DNA of 54,409 bases from Candidatus Aerophobota bacterium (GTDB taxonomy: Bacteria; Aerophobota; Aerophobia; Aerophobales; JAGGVN01), in assembly GCA_021158005.1 (NCBI GenBank), contig JAGGVN010000129.1:1-54409 (forward strand), given 5' to 3'. A model generated the notes under the pieces. It ran no database searches. It had not been told where the DNA came from and was given only the letters and a program-made list of their open reading frames with translations. The translations under genes and the position numbers were made by a program. Below, one piece after another: positions 42,791 through 48,488 of the stretch (within the stretch, counting starts at the first letter, position 1; each line of letters starts with the position of its first letter).

Positions 42791-43750
42791 TTGGAGAAAA
42801 AAACATTTATAAAAATAAGCAGATTTGTTCTCATTTTCTTCTCAATTATAGGAATGAGTTCCATTTCTTTTTCTCAGGACTTAAATTTCCAAATAAATCC
42901 AACGTATATTTCTTTTGGCAAGGTTATTCCTGTAGATGAAGAAGGAAATCTTAGGCAGGTAATAAAAAAGATGGAAATAGAAGGAAAGATTAAAAGTAAT
43001 CATAAATGGGTTCTTAAAGCATATCTCTTAGATAATTTTAGAGATGTTCAAAATCCTTCATCTACTCTTCCTTCTCAGCGTATGAGTATCAAAGTAAGTG
43101 ATTATTCTCGCAAAAAGGGATTTATTCCTCTCTCCCTTCAATCTGTAGTAATTGCTCAGGGAGAGCCTACCTCCGAAGAAATTCAGCTTAATATAAATCT
43201 TCAAATAATAATTAGGCCTTATGATCCACCTGGTAGATACACCTCGGATATTATTTATCTTTTAGATAACGGTGTCTCTACTTCTATTGAAAAGAGAATC
43301 TCTGTGGAAGTAGAAGTTCTTCCTTTAATGGATGTTGGTATTACTCCTCAAAAGCTTTTAATTAAAGTGCGCACTTCTCCAGAGGAAGAATATGAAGATT
43401 TTTTAGGAGAACCAATCGTTATTATCCTCTCTACTAATTGTGATTGGGAGTTGAAGGTAAAAGGGTTGGAAGATTTAATAGATGTCTCTGATGAGAATAA
43501 GAAACTTTCTATCGAGTATCTTGAATATCGAGTCATAAATTGTGGTAAGAATTGGATGCCCGTTTCTGATAAATGGAGGTCTTTTAGTAAAAAAGAAGTA
43601 GTAGTTGCTCGTGGAGGCTCTACTTTTGAGGAACCAGACCAAAGAGCAATTATTAAGATACTTTATCGGTTAAAGAGAAGTTGGGAGCAAGCATCAGGAG
43701 AGTATAGTGTAGGTATTGCCTACAGCATATCTACATTAGAAAATAAATAA
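42791..43750 (+). CDS. secreted two-module beta-rich protein (putative fibre minor/tip subunit)
   Basis: Signal peptide FVLIFFSIIGMSSISFSQ/D. Two modules each end in a G-x-Y strand (PPGRYTSDIIYLL; ASGEYSVGIAYSI). GGAG lies 8 nt before the TTG start. Confidence 0.6.
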   Translation: MEKKTFIKISRFVLIFFSIIGMSSISFSQDLNFQINPTYISFGKVIPVDEEGNLRQVIKKMEIEGKIKSNHKWVLKAYLLDNFRDVQNPSSTLPSQRMSIKVSDYSRKKGFIPLSLQSVVIAQGEPTSEEIQLNINLQIIIRPYDPPGRYTSDIIYLLDNGVSTSIEKRISVEVEVLPLMDVGITPQKLLIKVRTSPEEEYEDFLGEPIVIILSTNCDWELKVKGLEDLIDVSDENKKLSIEYLEYRVINCGKNWMPVSDKWRSFSKKEVVVARGGSTFEEPDQRAIIKILYRLKRSWEQASGEYSVGIAYSISTLENK

Positions 43751-43832
43751 AATAAAAGATAAAGGGAGGTGAAAAAAGAAAAAAATGAAAACATTAAGAA
43801 TAAAATTTAAAAAGGAAAAGGAGGCAAGAAAA

Positions 43833-45485: not shown

Positions 45486-48400
45486 ATGCATATTTACAAA
45501 CACTATTTTATACTTTTATTTTTGTCCTTTGGTTTAATTATTTCTAATCTTTTTATCCCTCCTTTATTAGCTGCTAACCCGGAGGAAACCAGTATCGTTC
45601 TAATGCGGCTTAATGGAAAAGTAGATATTATTGACCTGGAGGTGGTGGAATATGAAAAAGATAAAATTGCTCTTCCGCTTATGGTGATGGGTAAGATTTT
45701 AGATGTTCCCATAATTTGGTCAAAAAAAGATAAAATAGCTACTTTTTATCGGCCTTCAGACGGATTAAAGTGTGAGGTTCATGAAGGAGCAAAATATTTA
45801 TTAATTGGTGAGCAACTTTTTCAAGTTGATTTTCCCCCTTTGTGGATAGAGAAGGATTTATTTGTTCCCTTAGAATTTATTGAGAAAGGAATGGAAGTTG
45901 AACTAAAATGGAGTTTTTCAGAGCAAGCAGTTATAGCTACTTGCAGTCGAGACTTGAAACTTTTGAGTCCCTCGCCAAGAGGGAGAGAGAGCGAAGTAGC
46001 CGAAAAGAAGGAAGAATCTCCTCCTCAGAAGAAAACATCTTTTCTTTCCTTGAATTACTTTGATTATAAGTTATCTCATCGTGCTGAATTTTTAAAGGAA
46101 ACAAAATTAGACCCTTTGGTCAATTACTCGGAGGGTATACTTAATATAGGAACGAGAGGGAGACTTTTTGGAGGAAACTTTGATTTCAATACAGAATTAG
46201 CCACTTCTTCCAAAGACTTTCTTGGAGATATTATTTCATCTATTACAGGAAAACTTCGTTATCCTATCTTTGGTGGAGAAGTAGACATAGGGGATAGCTC
46301 CACAACTTTCTCTCAATTAACATTACAAGATATTAGCTTGCGAGGGATACAAGTAGGTATACCTAAGATAGAAGGAAGGATTACTTATGTTTCTCCGAGT
46401 ATAATTAAAGGTAAAGCCCTAGAAGGTTCTACAGTGGAACTTTGGGTAAATGATATATTTACCGCTAAGAAAGTGGTGGGTAAAGATGGCATCTATGAGT
46501 TTTCTAATATTTTTTTGCTTATGGGCGATGTTAATAAGGTAGAAATTTTTATTACAAACCCTCAAGGGGAAAAGAGAAAAATTGTCAAAAAGTATTTGGC
46601 TATTCCTGAAATTCTAAATAGAGGTGAAAGTCGTTTATCTATTTCAGGAGGATTAATTAAAGGCTCTGATGAGAAAGACTATTCTCGTCTTCTCTATGGA
46701 TTTAGATACCTTTATGGAATTAGTAAGGATTTAACATTGGGTTCTATAATAGTAAGTCAGGAAGATAAAAAATATATGGTAGAATCAGGAGTTGCTCCTT
46801 TATCTTCTCTTAATTTAGGATTATTGGGTAGCTGGCGCTTAATGAATAACTTTGTTATTACTGGGGAGATTAATCGCTCTAATTATGATCCTGATTGGAC
46901 AAACAAAGTTTCTTCTGAGGAGGAAAAAGAAGATTTTGCCTGGAGAGTGGAAGGCTTCTATAAGTCGGGAAGATTAACTTTAAGGCCTGCTTACCACAGA
47001 TATGGTAGTAATTACTATTCTACCGATGAATCCAGTGCAGATTCAGAAGGAATTAATGTGAATGGAAGATATATGTTTAGTAAGAGTCTAACTCTTTCAG
47101 CAGTTTATAGAGATTCTCATAATAATGTGGATGGAGAGAAAGAAGAAACGCTTTTTTCTTCTTCGTCTGGTCTTACTCTTAATACTAATTTATCTAAAAG
47201 ATCAAAATTAGGTTTGGGATACGGAATTAACTATCGTTATGATAAATCTCATTTAAAAATTGATTATAAAGTAAAGAATTTCTCAGGGAACTATAGTTAT
47301 CAGTTTCCCAATCTACTTACCTTTACTCTTAAAGGCAGCTCAATGATTACTAAAGATTTTATAGAATCCAATAATGACTTTAAAAAAGATGAATATTTTT
47401 TAAAGTTGAGTCAGAAACAGAAGAATGAAAATTACTGGAGCGTGGAACAATCTTTATCTCTTTATTCTTCACCCTCTGAGGAAAGTGAGAGTTCTTCTAC
47501 TAAGATTAAGTGGTCCGAAGGTGAAAAAGAAAGAAGACCCAGTTTCTATGCTCATCTTGGCTATAAATATAACGAAAATCCAGATGTTCGTTCTTCGGCT
47601 AAAGTATATTCTTTGGCTCTTGGCTTTGTTCGAAAATCAGTTTCTCAAGAGATAGGTTATTCTTGTGAGTTCGGATATAATCAGAATTACACTATTGAAA
47701 ATATTCTTAAGAGTGACCATGCTCACTTTTCTCTGGGTGCTGAATATAAGTGGGGGGACTCGGGATTAGAAATAGGTTTAAAATATACCTATAATTTTTC
47801 TCCTATTACTGGAGAGCGTTCGTTTGGTGGTATACGGGTAGCTCTTAATCAGGGTTTGGCTCTTTCTGGAGCAGAAGAAACACTTTCTGATGATTTACCG
47901 ATTGTTCCCAGTGGTAAAGTTAAAGGAAAAGTTTTTCTTGATTACAATCATAATGGGATTATGGATGAGAATGAACCTGGTGTTCCAGGGATCAAAGTAG
48001 GTTTGTTTCATCGCTATCTTCAGAATTCTGATAAAGAGGGAAATTTTTATTTCCCCAGGATTCCTGTTGGTGTGTATAAAGCGAATATTGACCTATATTC
48101 CTTGCCTGCTTCTTATTCTGTGACTACTCCTCCAGTAGAAATAGAAGTAAAATTAAATGAAACAGTGATAGTTAACTTAGGAATAATTCCTGTGGTTAGT
48201 ATCACCGGGAGAGTATTTTTAGATGAAAACAAAAATGGAATATATGATAAGGGAGAAAAAGTAGGGGGAGGTATTCGGCTGGTTTTAGATGATGGTAAGA
48301 GAGATACTTATACTGACCCTGACGGGAGCTATTATTTTGGGGAGGTATTCCCTGGGGAGCATATTATTACTGTAGATTTAGGAACTTTCTCTAAAAAAGT

Positions 48401-48488
48401 AAAATTAGTTAAAAAATCTATAAAGATAAATATCCCTTTTGACGTTGAAGAAATAGAGGGAATTGATTTTCCTGTTCAATTATGTTAG
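45486..48488 (+). CDS. large outer-membrane protein, usher-like barrel with added terminal domains
   Basis: Signal peptide, then a Cu-amine-oxidase-N1-like module (IALPLMVMGKILDVPIIWSKKDKIATF; LFVPLEFIEKGMEVELKW). Usher-like IGDSSTTFSQLTLQDISLRGIQVG and GKALEGSTVELWVNDIFTAKKVVGKDGIYEFSNI. Long Y/G/S-rich beta-strand region. Two C-terminal SdrD-B/CarboxypepD_reg-type repeats (VFLDYNHNGIMDENEPG...; VFLDENKNGIYDKGEKV...) at about 47911-48485. Confidence 0.5.
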   Translation: MHIYKHYFILLFLSFGLIISNLFIPPLLAANPEETSIVLMRLNGKVDIIDLEVVEYEKDKIALPLMVMGKILDVPIIWSKKDKIATFYRPSDGLKCEVHEGAKYLLIGEQLFQVDFPPLWIEKDLFVPLEFIEKGMEVELKWSFSEQAVIATCSRDLKLLSPSPRGRESEVAEKKEESPPQKKTSFLSLNYFDYKLSHRAEFLKETKLDPLVNYSEGILNIGTRGRLFGGNFDFNTELATSSKDFLGDIISSITGKLRYPIFGGEVDIGDSSTTFSQLTLQDISLRGIQVGIPKIEGRITYVSPSIIKGKALEGSTVELWVNDIFTAKKVVGKDGIYEFSNIFLLMGDVNKVEIFITNPQGEKRKIVKKYLAIPEILNRGESRLSISGGLIKGSDEKDYSRLLYGFRYLYGISKDLTLGSIIVSQEDKKYMVESGVAPLSSLNLGLLGSWRLMNNFVITGEINRSNYDPDWTNKVSSEEEKEDFAWRVEGFYKSGRLTLRPAYHRYGSNYYSTDESSADSEGINVNGRYMFSKSLTLSAVYRDSHNNVDGEKEETLFSSSSGLTLNTNLSKRSKLGLGYGINYRYDKSHLKIDYKVKNFSGNYSYQFPNLLTFTLKGSSMITKDFIESNNDFKKDEYFLKLSQKQKNENYWSVEQSLSLYSSPSEESESSSTKIKWSEGEKERRPSFYAHLGYKYNENPDVRSSAKVYSLALGFVRKSVSQEIGYSCEFGYNQNYTIENILKSDHAHFSLGAEYKWGDSGLEIGLKYTYNFSPITGERSFGGIRVALNQGLALSGAEETLSDDLPIVPSGKVKGKVFLDYNHNGIMDENEPGVPGIKVGLFHRYLQNSDKEGNFYFPRIPVGVYKANIDLYSLPASYSVTTPPVEIEVKLNETVIVNLGIIPVVSITGRVFLDENKNGIYDKGEKVGGGIRLVLDDGKRDTYTDPDGSYYFGEVFPGEHIITVDLGTFSKKVKLVKKSIKINIPFDVEEIEGIDFPVQLC

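What the first reader, a model, noticed from the sequence alone, without database searches (positions are those of the whole stretch)
42791..48488. Sigma-54-driven four-gene operon with chaperone-usher logic but non-canonical parts
Seen in sequence: four co-directional genes for exported proteins, with gaps of 2-85 nt.
- P319 has two beta-rich modules, each closing with a G-x-Y strand (PPGRYTSDIIYLL; ASGEYSVGIAYSI).
- P246 has a strong RBS and ends in the amphipathic strand GYFVASYE with a penultimate Tyr.
- P274 is a periplasmic protein whose strand pattern (LRVEPVRFEF / TAALTVSNTYEYSIRLKAKVY / IKFNPREFEVSPGERQVVRF / GEHRCVIIFE) reads like a PapD-type chaperone.
- P1000 is an OMP with usher-like motifs (IGDSSTTF...SLRGIQVG; GKALEGSTVELWVNDIF...GKDGIYEFSNI).
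Established knowledge: the subunit(s)-chaperone-usher gene order and a C-terminal beta-strand with penultimate Tyr (FimA ends ...KVQYQ) are hallmarks of chaperone-usher pili, which are characterised mainly in Proteobacteria.
Inference: this is a very divergent, probably undescribed fibre or surface-appendage assembly system in an AT-rich uncultivated-type diderm, switched on by the adjacent enhancer-binding protein. None of the four proteins looks like a textbook family member by eye, which is why it is worth testing.
Basis: partly seen in the sequence, partly recalled or inferred. Interest (0 to 1): 0.82.

Follow-up and report, generated by a model that had tools for sequence, protein, structure and literature searches.

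The report
Divergent chaperone-usher fibre assembly operon
Four neighbouring genes encode a strongly diverged version of the chaperone-usher machinery that Gram-negative bacteria use to build surface fibres; it belongs to a large branch of that machinery, found in many uncultured non-proteobacterial lineages, that public databases label only as hypothetical proteins.

Summary
Four co-directional genes for exported proteins lie at the stated coordinates, behind a sigma-54-type -24/-12 element and next to an enhancer-binding protein gene.

The chaperone-usher reading passes the two refutation tests I could run.
- P274 models with high confidence (pLDDT 89) as a two-lobed Ig-like protein. Its best solved matches are WxLIP and then the pilus chaperones CfaA, Caf1M, CsuC, PapD and FimC.
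- The P1000 family aligns with E. coli ushers over barrel and plug (hhalign 98.7%, E 4e-16).

The parts are not canonical. The usher N-terminal domain is Cu_amine_oxidN1-like, its C-terminal domains are SdrD_B-like, and none of the four proteins itself reaches a Pfam usher, PapD or fimbrial model.

Subunit(s), P274-like and P1000-like genes lie in that order in about 80 loci from Planctomycetota, Desulfobacterota, Omnitrophica, Eisenbacteria and unbinned metagenomes. P246 and the C-terminal half of P319 link by profile comparison to a ~185-aa subunit family, which in turn links to classical fimbrial subunits.

Not shown: the subunit fold, donor-strand exchange, an actual fibre, and sigma-54 dependence.

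Verdict: a new, deep-branching variant of the chaperone-usher pathway.

The parts
39140..40597 (+). GAF-histidine kinase, PrsK-like; probable sensor partner of the activator
   Evidence: Pfam GAF_2 and HATPase_c. Best NCBIfam hit is TIGR02916 PrsK at 222 bits, below the cutoff of 300, covering the C-terminal half only. Overlaps the activator gene by 8 nt.
40590..41939 (+). Sigma-54 enhancer-binding response regulator (REC, AAA+, HTH_8), PrsR-like
   Evidence: Sigma54_activat 1.4e-75, Response_reg and HTH_8. TIGR02915 PEP-CTERM-box response regulator at 530.3 bits, above the cutoff of 502.6.
42045..42098 (+). UAS-like repeat block 1, a candidate activator binding site
   Evidence: Direct repeat families D2 and D3, 81-96% identical to 42623-42675.
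42153..42168 (+). Sigma-54-type -24/-12 element 1 (TGGCTAAAAAATTGCT) upstream of the lone receiver gene
   Evidence: 3 matches against 0.26 expected.
42247..42627 (+). Stand-alone receiver-domain protein (126 aa) behind its own copy of the promoter; probably part of the same regulon
   Evidence: Response_reg 4.1e-26.
42623..42675 (+). UAS-like repeat block 2, 62-114 nt upstream of the operon promoter
   Evidence: contains the inverted repeat I3 (42628-42648 / 42654-42674).
42737..42752 (+). Sigma-54-type -24/-12 element 2, 39 nt upstream of the P319 start
42791..43750 (+). P319: exported two-module protein. The C-terminal module (about aa 200-315) is subunit-like, so this is a candidate two-domain tip subunit or adhesin.
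   Evidence: Homologues lie upstream of the subunit gene in L014, L015, L019, L025, L031, L022 and L023. hhalign of the P319 family against the P246-type family: 78.5%, E 1.7e-5, P319 202-314 aligned to P246 110-244. No Pfam or PDB hit.
43833..44573 (+). P246: exported candidate major fibre subunit (alternative start 43785)
   Evidence: Same position as the subunit gene in 62 of 64 related loci. 57-60% identical homologues lie next to P274 homologues in L087 and L088, with two invariant Cys and a conserved C-terminus. hhalign of the P246-type family against the ~185-aa subunit family: 95.6%, E 1.1e-8 over the C-terminal 46 columns. No Pfam hit.
44604..44639 (+). 15-bp stem-loop followed by a U-rich tail between the subunit and chaperone genes; candidate attenuator that sets the subunit:machinery ratio
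   Evidence: -20.9 kcal/mol, z -4.7, 0 of 200 shuffles as stable. Terminator-like hairpins at the same position in 12 of 51 related loci.
44659..45483 (+). P274: periplasmic two-domain Ig-like, PapD-type chaperone
   Evidence: AlphaFold2 with a 19-sequence alignment: pLDDT 89.1, pTM 0.75, beta-sandwich domains at 35-162 and 169-269. Foldseek against PDB: WxLIP 1.2e-10, then CfaA, Caf1M, CsuC, SafB, PapD, FimC and others at 1e-9 to 1e-6. Family members P0133 and P0142 carry PF00345 PapD_N. hhalign against E. coli chaperones: 63.7%, E 6.7e-5.
45486..48488 (+). P1000: usher-like outer-membrane protein. Cu_amine_oxidN1-like N-terminal domain (aa 54-150), barrel (about aa 185-800) with an inserted plug-like beta-sandwich (about aa 300-376), and two SdrD_B/CarboxypepD_reg-like C-terminal domains (aa 812-1000).
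   Evidence: Pfam domains. 124 cluster representatives, mostly about 1000 aa and collinear. PF00577 Usher matches 10 of 48 family members, two above the gathering score. The family profile hits FimD structures at E 5e-4 to 1e-3. hhalign against E. coli ushers: 98.7%, E 3.9e-16, P1000 263-967 aligned to FimD 258-851.
46383..46613 (+). Plug-like beta-sandwich inserted in the P1000 barrel (aa about 300-376)
   Evidence: Aligned column by column with the FimD plug region. This is also the stretch that Pfam Usher (profile positions about 47-211) matches in relatives.

Best explanation
The four genes encode a complete but deeply diverged chaperone-usher secretion and assembly system.

Proposed mechanism:
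1. P246 (probable major subunit) and P319 (two-module protein with a subunit-like C-terminal half, probable tip subunit) are exported by Sec.
2. The two-lobed Ig-like chaperone P274 captures them in the periplasm.
3. They are delivered to P1000, an outer-membrane barrel closed by an internal plug.
4. There they are joined and threaded to the surface as a fibre or other polymer.

Shown here: homology of P1000 to ushers (barrel and plug); a PapD-type fold for P274; conserved subunit(s)-chaperone-usher gene order across many phyla; and profile-level links from the subunits to classical fimbrial subunits.

Inferred: donor-strand complementation and exchange; a fibre as the product; P319 as the tip; and the stem-loop after P246 raising the subunit:machinery ratio.

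In this lineage, expression is probably switched on by the adjacent PrsK/PrsR-like two-component pair through a sigma-54 promoter. That step rests on motifs only.

The machine differs from textbook ushers. Its periplasmic N-terminal docking domain is a Cu_amine_oxidN1-like domain, and its C-terminal domains are SdrD_B-like with a conserved Ca-binding-type motif. Chaperone-subunit docking is therefore likely to work differently.
For: Usher:
- phmmer with P1000 aa 1-800 finds 124 cluster representatives, mostly collinear proteins of about 1000 aa.
- Three of the weakest hits (P0108, P0111, P0122) are classical ushers by an E. coli usher HMM, E 1e-30 to 9e-19.
- PF00577 matches 10 of 48 members. 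P0045 (35.2 bits) and P0026 (31.7 bits) exceed the cutoff of 27.1.
- The family profile hits FimD chains in PDB over profile positions 195-600 against FimD 135-560.
- hhalign against six E. coli ushers gives 98.7%, E 3.9e-16 over 537 columns including the plug. Barrel plus plug alone gives 97.8%.

Chaperone:
- AlphaFold2 model with pLDDT 89.1 and two beta-sandwich lobes.
- Foldseek hits to CfaA, Caf1M, CsuC, SafB, PapD, FimC, DraB, EcpB and FaeE.
- PF00345 on two family members, and a JGI 'PapD' name on a third.
- hhalign against E. coli chaperones gives E 6.7e-5 in the right register: NPxEF aligned to TPPLF, and the G1-like strand aligned.

Synteny:
- A subunit gene lies directly upstream of 62 of 64 P274 homologues.
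- A usher-like gene lies directly downstream of 47 of 60. Most of the rest are truncated contig ends.

Subunits:
- The ~185-aa family against E. coli fimbrial subunits: 88.5%, E 2.7e-6, covering the FimA N-terminal extension and first strands.
- The P246-type family against the ~185-aa family: 95.6%.
- The P319 family against the P246-type family: 78.5%.

Regulation and stoichiometry.
Against: - P274 and P1000 themselves get no PapD or Usher hit in Pfam or NCBIfam and none by sequence in PDB.
- The usher N-terminal domain shows no similarity to the classical one (1.8%). The C-terminal domains are only weakly similar (61%).
- The best structural match of P274 is WxLIP, a Gram-positive surface protein, not a pilus chaperone. 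TM-scores are only 0.4-0.6.
- Chaperone profile-profile probability is modest (63.7%). No equivalent of PapD Lys112 is evident.
- The fold of P246 is unknown (pLDDT 34). Its link to fimbrial subunits is transitive and covers only its C-terminal 46 columns. Direct comparison with E. coli subunits matched only the signal peptide.
- No fibre has been observed.
- Sigma-54 elements and activator genes are not conserved near related loci, and rpoN was not found among the window genes scanned.
Confidence: 0.74

Rival explanations
1. A chaperone-usher-derived exporter whose product is not a classical pilus. It could be an amorphous polymer coat or capsule (as Caf1/F1 antigen is in Yersinia), a sheath or spore-coat-like layer (as proposed for Myxococcus Mcu), or a surface-anchored monomer.
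For: The machinery homology says nothing about product morphology. P246 is larger (about 220 aa mature) than typical pilins and unlike them in sequence. Only one or two subunit types are encoded, with no set of minor pilins. The examples named are from my own knowledge.
Against: The wider family often carries 2-3 tandem subunit paralogues plus a two-domain protein, as pilus operons do. The ~185-aa subunits align with FimA from its N-terminal extension onward.
Confidence: 0.15
2. P274 is a WxLIP-like surface or periplasmic binding protein, and P1000 is an adhesin-bearing porin. On this reading the four proteins form a surface complex without polymerisation, and the resemblance to usher and chaperone is remote shared ancestry only.
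For: WxLIP is the top Foldseek hit. Pfam WxLIP_PGBD and WxLIP_HBD match 4 of 18 family members. The C-terminal SdrD_B domains are typical of adhesins.
Against: No WxL-domain partner is present among the four proteins. P274 lacks the C-terminal membrane anchor seen in the WxLIP-like distant hits. The barrel-plus-plug homology to ushers is strong. The tight chaperone-usher gene coupling (2-nt gap here) is conserved.
Confidence: 0.06
3. On regulation only: the operon is not sigma-54 dependent. The TGGC-N7-TTGC elements would then be inactive or coincidental, and transcription would start from an AT-rich sigma-70-type promoter or read through from upstream.
For: The region is 32-36% G+C. Sigma-70-like hexamers are no rarer than chance. 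Related loci mostly lack both the element and an activator gene. No rpoN was found among the window genes scanned.
Against: There are two identical 16-nt elements with correct GG/GC spacing, each behind a shared ~50-nt upstream block and next to a complete activator gene. The pattern count exceeds all 100 shuffles.
Confidence: 0.2

Closest known systems
Classical chaperone-usher pili (type 1 Fim and P pili: FimC/PapD chaperone, FimD/PapC usher, FimA/PapA subunits)
   Same: Gene logic of subunit(s), periplasmic chaperone, outer-membrane usher. Usher barrel with an inserted plug. Two-lobed Ig-like chaperone. A hairpin after the major subunit gene. A two-module protein with a subunit-like C-terminal half, as in FimH and PapG (the comparison with FimH/PapG is from my own knowledge).
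   Different: The usher N-terminal domain is Cu_amine_oxidN1-like, not PapC_N. The C-terminal domains are SdrD_B/CarboxypepD_reg-like with a near-invariant D-x-N-x-N-G...E motif. No Pfam Usher, PapD or Fimbrial hit on the window proteins. No Lys112 equivalent was seen. The two-module gene comes first rather than last. The hosts are non-proteobacterial MAGs.
Archaic (sigma) and alternative (alpha) chaperone-usher systems: Csu pili of Acinetobacter (CsuC/CsuD) and CFA/I (CfaA)
   Same: CfaA (6k73, 4y2o, 4ncd) and CsuC (5d6h, 6fqa) are among the closest solved chaperone structures to the P274 model. From my own knowledge, these are the chaperone-usher clades already known to reach beyond enterobacteria.
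   Different: The subunits here have no SCPU (PF05229) or other Pfam match. The usher architecture differs as described above.
WxLIP (DUF916 + DUF3324) of Gram-positive WxL/Csc surface-protein clusters (PDB 9i1y, 9i25; PMC10599100)
   Same: Best structural match to P274 (E 1.2e-10). Weak Pfam WxLIP_PGBD and WxLIP_HBD hits in family members. Some distant sequence hits carry the WxLIP-type C-terminal anchor.
   Different: WxLIP works in monoderms with WxL-domain partners and no outer-membrane usher. P274 has neither a WxL partner nor a C-terminal anchor, and it is coupled to a usher homologue.
PrsK/PrsR sigma-54 two-component system of PEP-CTERM/exosortase loci (TIGR02916, TIGR02915)
   Same: The activator scores above the PrsR cutoff. 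The adjacent kinase has PrsK as its best hit.
   Different: No exosortase or PEP-CTERM protein is in the window. None of the four proteins matched a PEP-CTERM model in the NCBIfam scan. The kinase matches only the C-terminal half of PrsK, below the cutoff.

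Membership tests
Chaperone-usher pathway | Outer-membrane usher homologous to PF00577, with a barrel and an internal plug domain | tested here: met
   Met at the family-profile level: hhalign 98.7%, E 3.9e-16 with the plug aligned; FimD hits in PDB; PF00577 above the gathering score in two relatives. P1000 alone gets no PF00577 hit.
Chaperone-usher pathway | Usher N-terminal chaperone-subunit docking domain (PapC_N type) | tested here: not met
   hhalign of the N-terminal segments gives 1.8%. Pfam instead finds Cu_amine_oxidN1 in P1000 and in 27 of 48 relatives.
Chaperone-usher pathway | Usher C-terminal beta-sandwich domain(s) (PapC_C type) | tested here: inconclusive
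   hhalign of the C-terminal segments gives 61%, E 8e-5. Pfam assigns SdrD_B and CarboxypepD_reg.
Chaperone-usher pathway | Periplasmic chaperone with two Ig-like lobes (PapD fold) | tested here: met
   AlphaFold2 pLDDT 89.1 with two beta-sandwiches. Foldseek hits to a dozen different pilus chaperones at E 1e-9 to 1e-6.
Chaperone-usher pathway | Chaperone sequence membership in PapD_N/PapD_C (PF00345/PF02753) | tested here: inconclusive
   No hit for P274 or for the 18 relatives scanned. PF00345 is on record for P0133 and P0142. hhalign gives 63.7% over the N-domain only.
Chaperone-usher pathway | Conserved cleft residues that anchor the subunit C-terminus (PapD Arg8 and Lys112; from my own knowledge) | tested here: inconclusive
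   P274 and its closer relatives have P-x-R-hydrophobic (EPVRFEF), resembling PapD's T-R-V-I-Y. The Planctomycete/Desulfobacterota branch has PAFVEV, with no Arg. No Lys112 equivalent is seen in the aligned G1-like strand.
Chaperone-usher pathway | Subunits with an incomplete Ig fold and an N-terminal donor strand | not testable with these tools
Indirect evidence only.
Chaperone-usher pathway | Contiguous, conserved subunit-chaperone-usher gene cluster | tested here: met
   62 of 64 with a subunit gene upstream and 47 of 60 with a usher-like gene downstream of P274 homologues.
Sigma-54-dependent operon | -24 GG / -12 GC element at correct spacing, upstream activator sites, and a cognate enhancer-binding protein | tested here: met
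   The activity itself, and the presence of rpoN, were not tested.
WxL/WxLIP surface complexes | WxL-domain partner proteins and a C-terminally anchored WxLIP | tested here: not met
   No WxL or other Pfam hit in P246 or P319. P274 ends without a hydrophobic anchor.
Archaic Csu/SCPU-type pili | SCPU (PF05229) subunits | tested here: not met
   No Pfam hit at E<=1 for P246, P319 or the 35 subunit relatives.
Type V (Bacteroidia FimA/Mfa) pili | Lipoprotein pilin precursors, protease-triggered strand exchange, no usher | tested here: not met
   P246 and P319 have no lipobox Cys after the signal peptide, and a usher homologue is present.

The most novel reading that the evidence does not exclude
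This is the first recognised member set of a separate, ancient clade of the chaperone-usher pathway, outside the alpha to sigma classification. It is spread through Planctomycetota, Desulfobacterota, Omnitrophica, Eisenbacteria and relatives. The usher has swapped its docking domain for a Cu_amine_oxidN1-like domain and carries Ca-binding SdrD_B-type C-terminal domains. The subunit families are new. The chaperone sits structurally between pilus chaperones and the Gram-positive WxLIP proteins, which hints at a common origin of the two.
Probability: 0.45. Interest if true: 0.75.

Novelty: new variant of a known kind. Interest (0 to 1): 0.62.

Why it matters
Chaperone-usher pili are the best understood bacterial fibre assembly system, yet they are known almost entirely from Proteobacteria.

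- This operon belongs to a family of at least 124 clusters (at 50% identity) of usher-like proteins. Public sources call those I looked up 'hypothetical protein' or 'SdrD B-like domain-containing protein', so surface-fibre potential in many uncultured diderm phyla is currently invisible to annotation.
- The replaced usher docking domain offers a natural experiment on how chaperone-subunit complexes are recruited.
- The structural closeness of the chaperone to WxLIP gives a testable link between diderm and monoderm surface-assembly proteins.
- The three new subunit families could be turned into annotation models straight away.

Tried and rejected
- Direct Pfam, NCBIfam and PDB sequence searches with the four proteins gave nothing diagnostic.
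- The search for homologous proteins with P1000, and with the 48-sequence family alignment, returned only the query's own protein. The exhaustive search and locus scans were needed instead.
- The search for related loci with the full usher alignment failed for lack of a conserved stretch. A sub-clade alignment worked.
- The HMM of the ~185-aa subunit family does not detect P246 or P319 directly. Only after adding positional homologues from L023, L024 and L026 did the P246-type profile link to it.
- Single-sequence AlphaFold2 of P246 was useless.
- I rejected a PEP-CTERM/exosortase reading, despite the PrsR-like activator. None of the four proteins matched a PEP-CTERM model, and no exosortase was seen among the scanned window genes.
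- I rejected type V pili, SCPU/Csu subunits and WxL complexes as memberships (see the membership table).
- I considered that sigma-54 control might be a family trait. It is not: only L078 has an activator nearby, and the -24/-12 pattern is barely enriched.
- A possible co-variation was noted. Chaperones with the PapD-like Arg pair with subunits whose C-terminus lies at a fixed distance from the GxYxG motif. It rests on 4-5 loci only and is recorded as a lead, not a result.
- Nine of ten literature searches timed out. Prior description in the literature could therefore not be excluded.

Full report
OBSERVATION

The four ORFs are real and placed as described: P319 at 42791-43750, P246 at 43833-44573, P274 at 44659-45483 and P1000 at 45486-48488. 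All are on the + strand, with gaps of 82, 85 and 2 nt. The ORF holding P246 opens at 43785, and other assemblies call a 261-263 aa product. All four begin with signal-peptide-like N-termini (sequence). They show no significant similarity to one another by BLASTP.

Upstream lies a signalling cluster:
- two GAF/PAS histidine kinases;
- a REC-HD-GYP protein;
- a PrsK-like kinase (TIGR02916, 222 bits, below the cutoff);
- a complete sigma-54 activator that passes the PrsR model (TIGR02915, 530 bits against a cutoff of 502.6).

The element TGGCTAAAAAATTGCT occurs twice. One copy is at 42153, before a lone receiver gene. The other is at 42737, 39 nt before P319. The pattern count is 3 against 0.26 expected. 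Both copies follow a shared ~50-nt block. The sigma-54 reading is therefore well founded at the sequence level but untested functionally.

THE USHER-LIKE PROTEIN

P1000 has no direct usher hit. Pfam sees Cu_amine_oxidN1 (aa 54-150), weak porin signals, and SdrD_B/CarboxypepD_reg at the C-terminus.

An exhaustive phmmer search with aa 1-800 found 124 cluster representatives, mostly collinear and about 1000 aa long. The evidence that this family is related to ushers is as follows.
- Scanning 48 of the representatives against Pfam gave SdrD_B in 47, Cu_amine_oxidN1 in 27 and PF00577 Usher in 10. Two of these exceed the gathering score, always over the early barrel and plug part of the model.
- A profile of the family hits FimD structures in PDB at E 5e-4 to 1e-3, collinearly.
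- Profile-profile comparison with six E. coli ushers (fetched) gives 98.7%, E 3.9e-16 over 537 columns.
- Three of the weakest phmmer hits are classical ushers.

Segment tests show that the homology lies in barrel and plug (97.8%). The C-terminal domains are only weakly similar (61%). The N-terminal domain is unrelated to the usher docking domain (1.8%).

THE CHAPERONE-LIKE PROTEIN

P274 alone gives only sub-threshold Ig-domain hits. Its homologues lie immediately upstream of the usher-like gene in the genome loci and in metagenome loci.

A profile search returned 19 proteins. They include 84% and 63% identical relatives, two proteins with PF00345 PapD_N on record, and one named PapD by JGI.

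With these as the alignment, AlphaFold2 gave a confident model (pLDDT 89.1, pTM 0.75). It has two beta-sandwich lobes and a low-confidence loop at 139-152, before a strongly hydrophobic last strand of lobe 1.

Foldseek against PDB ranks WxLIP of Enterococcus first (1.2e-10). It then ranks pilus chaperones from four chaperone-usher clades: CfaA, Caf1M, CsuC, SafB, PapD, FimC, DraB, EcpB and FaeE.

hhalign against eight E. coli chaperones is modest (63.7%, E 6.7e-5) but in register.

THE SUBUNITS

A ~185-aa secreted protein family precedes the chaperone gene in 62 of 64 cases, sometimes in 2-3 tandem copies. It has no Pfam or PDB relative by sequence, and the members I looked up are annotated as hypothetical.

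Three profile comparisons connect the subunits.
- The ~185-aa family aligns with E. coli fimbrial subunits from the FimA N-terminal extension through the first strands (88.5%, E 2.7e-6).
- P246 is not detected by that family's HMM. A profile of P246 with its positional homologues matches the family's C-terminal strands at 95.6%, E 1.1e-8.
- The C-terminal module of P319 matches the P246-type profile at 78.5%.

P319 homologues precede the subunit gene in seven loci. The closest loci (L021-L023) repeat the same four-gene order, twice in tandem in L023.

The fold of P246 could not be obtained.

OTHER ANATOMY

A 15-bp stem-loop (-20.9 kcal/mol, z -4.7) lies between P246 and P274. Terminator-like hairpins recur at this position in 12 of 51 related loci, whereas the chaperone and usher genes are tightly coupled. 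From my own knowledge, pap and fim operons also carry a hairpin after the major subunit gene, which fits high subunit and low machinery expression.

No further component of the system is encoded elsewhere in the window.

MECHANISM

The best-supported reading is a chaperone-usher type assembly line. Subunits are exported by Sec, held by P274, and handed to the plugged barrel P1000, where they are polymerised and secreted. P319 is the likely two-domain tip subunit.

Homology, fold and synteny are shown. Strand complementation, polymer formation and the role of P319 are inferred. The different usher N-terminal domain implies a different docking step.

COMPARISON AND NOVELTY

The system works like a chaperone-usher pilus. 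It fails one defining membership feature, the usher N-terminal domain. Several others are inconclusive: PapD sequence membership, the Lys112 equivalent, and the C-terminal domains.

Hosts named in the genome records are MAGs of Phycisphaerae and other Planctomycetota, Desulfobacterota orders, Omnitrophica, Eisenbacteria and others. The window's own organism could not be named.

Annotation sources do not recognise the family. Nine of ten literature searches timed out, so prior description cannot be excluded.

I rate it a new variant of a known kind. It is of solid but not exceptional interest.

Noticed in passing
window 42247-42627, with 42045-42168: A stand-alone receiver-domain gene has its own exact copy of the sigma-54 -24/-12 element and of the upstream repeat block. 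The activator probably drives two transcription units, and the receiver may feed back on the phosphorelay.
   Followed up: partly
window 48556-50607 (- strand): An S8 subtilase with a fervidolysin-like prodomain, a Y_Y_Y domain and a T9SS-type C-terminal sorting domain converges on the end of P1000. It implies the organism has a type IX secretion system. No link to the operon was shown.
   Followed up: no
window 51221-53773: An 850-aa outer-membrane protein has weak Porin_4 and Deinococcus SlpA beta-barrel (SlpA_C) hits. It is not detected by any of the family profiles built here.
   Followed up: partly
window 6533-7501: A Cas6-like ORF (PF10040, 1.3e-22) with no CRISPR array anywhere in the window. 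Tandem repeat and Rfam scans found none.
   Followed up: partly
window 33642-41939: A dense signalling cluster precedes the operon: a 7TM-GAF-PAS kinase, a GAF-PAS kinase, a REC-HD-GYP (c-di-GMP phosphodiesterase-type) protein, a PrsK-like kinase and a PrsR-like activator. Several of the genes overlap.
   Followed up: partly
L023 3682-14052: The closest related contig (fermentation metagenome) carries two complete cassettes in tandem, each with a two-module protein, subunit, chaperone and usher.
   Followed up: partly
L078 1918-4039: A PapD_N-positive chaperone gene is followed directly by a sigma-54 activator gene, upstream of a second subunit-chaperone-usher set. This is the only other locus with an activator nearby.
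   Followed up: no
P0002 (NCBI MGE5623542.1): The closest usher-like relative of P1000 (29% identity) is labelled as coming from a Methanocella sp. MAG. An outer-membrane usher in an archaeon suggests a mis-binned contig.
   Followed up: no
P1000 aa 814-830 and the family alignments A1/A2: The first C-terminal domain carries a near-invariant G-x-V-x-x-D-x-N-x-N-G...E motif of the SdrD B (calcium-binding) type. Classical usher C-terminal domains are not known for this.
   Followed up: no
window 44193-44208: A third match to TGGC-N7-TTGCW lies inside the P246 coding region. It is probably chance.
   Followed up: no
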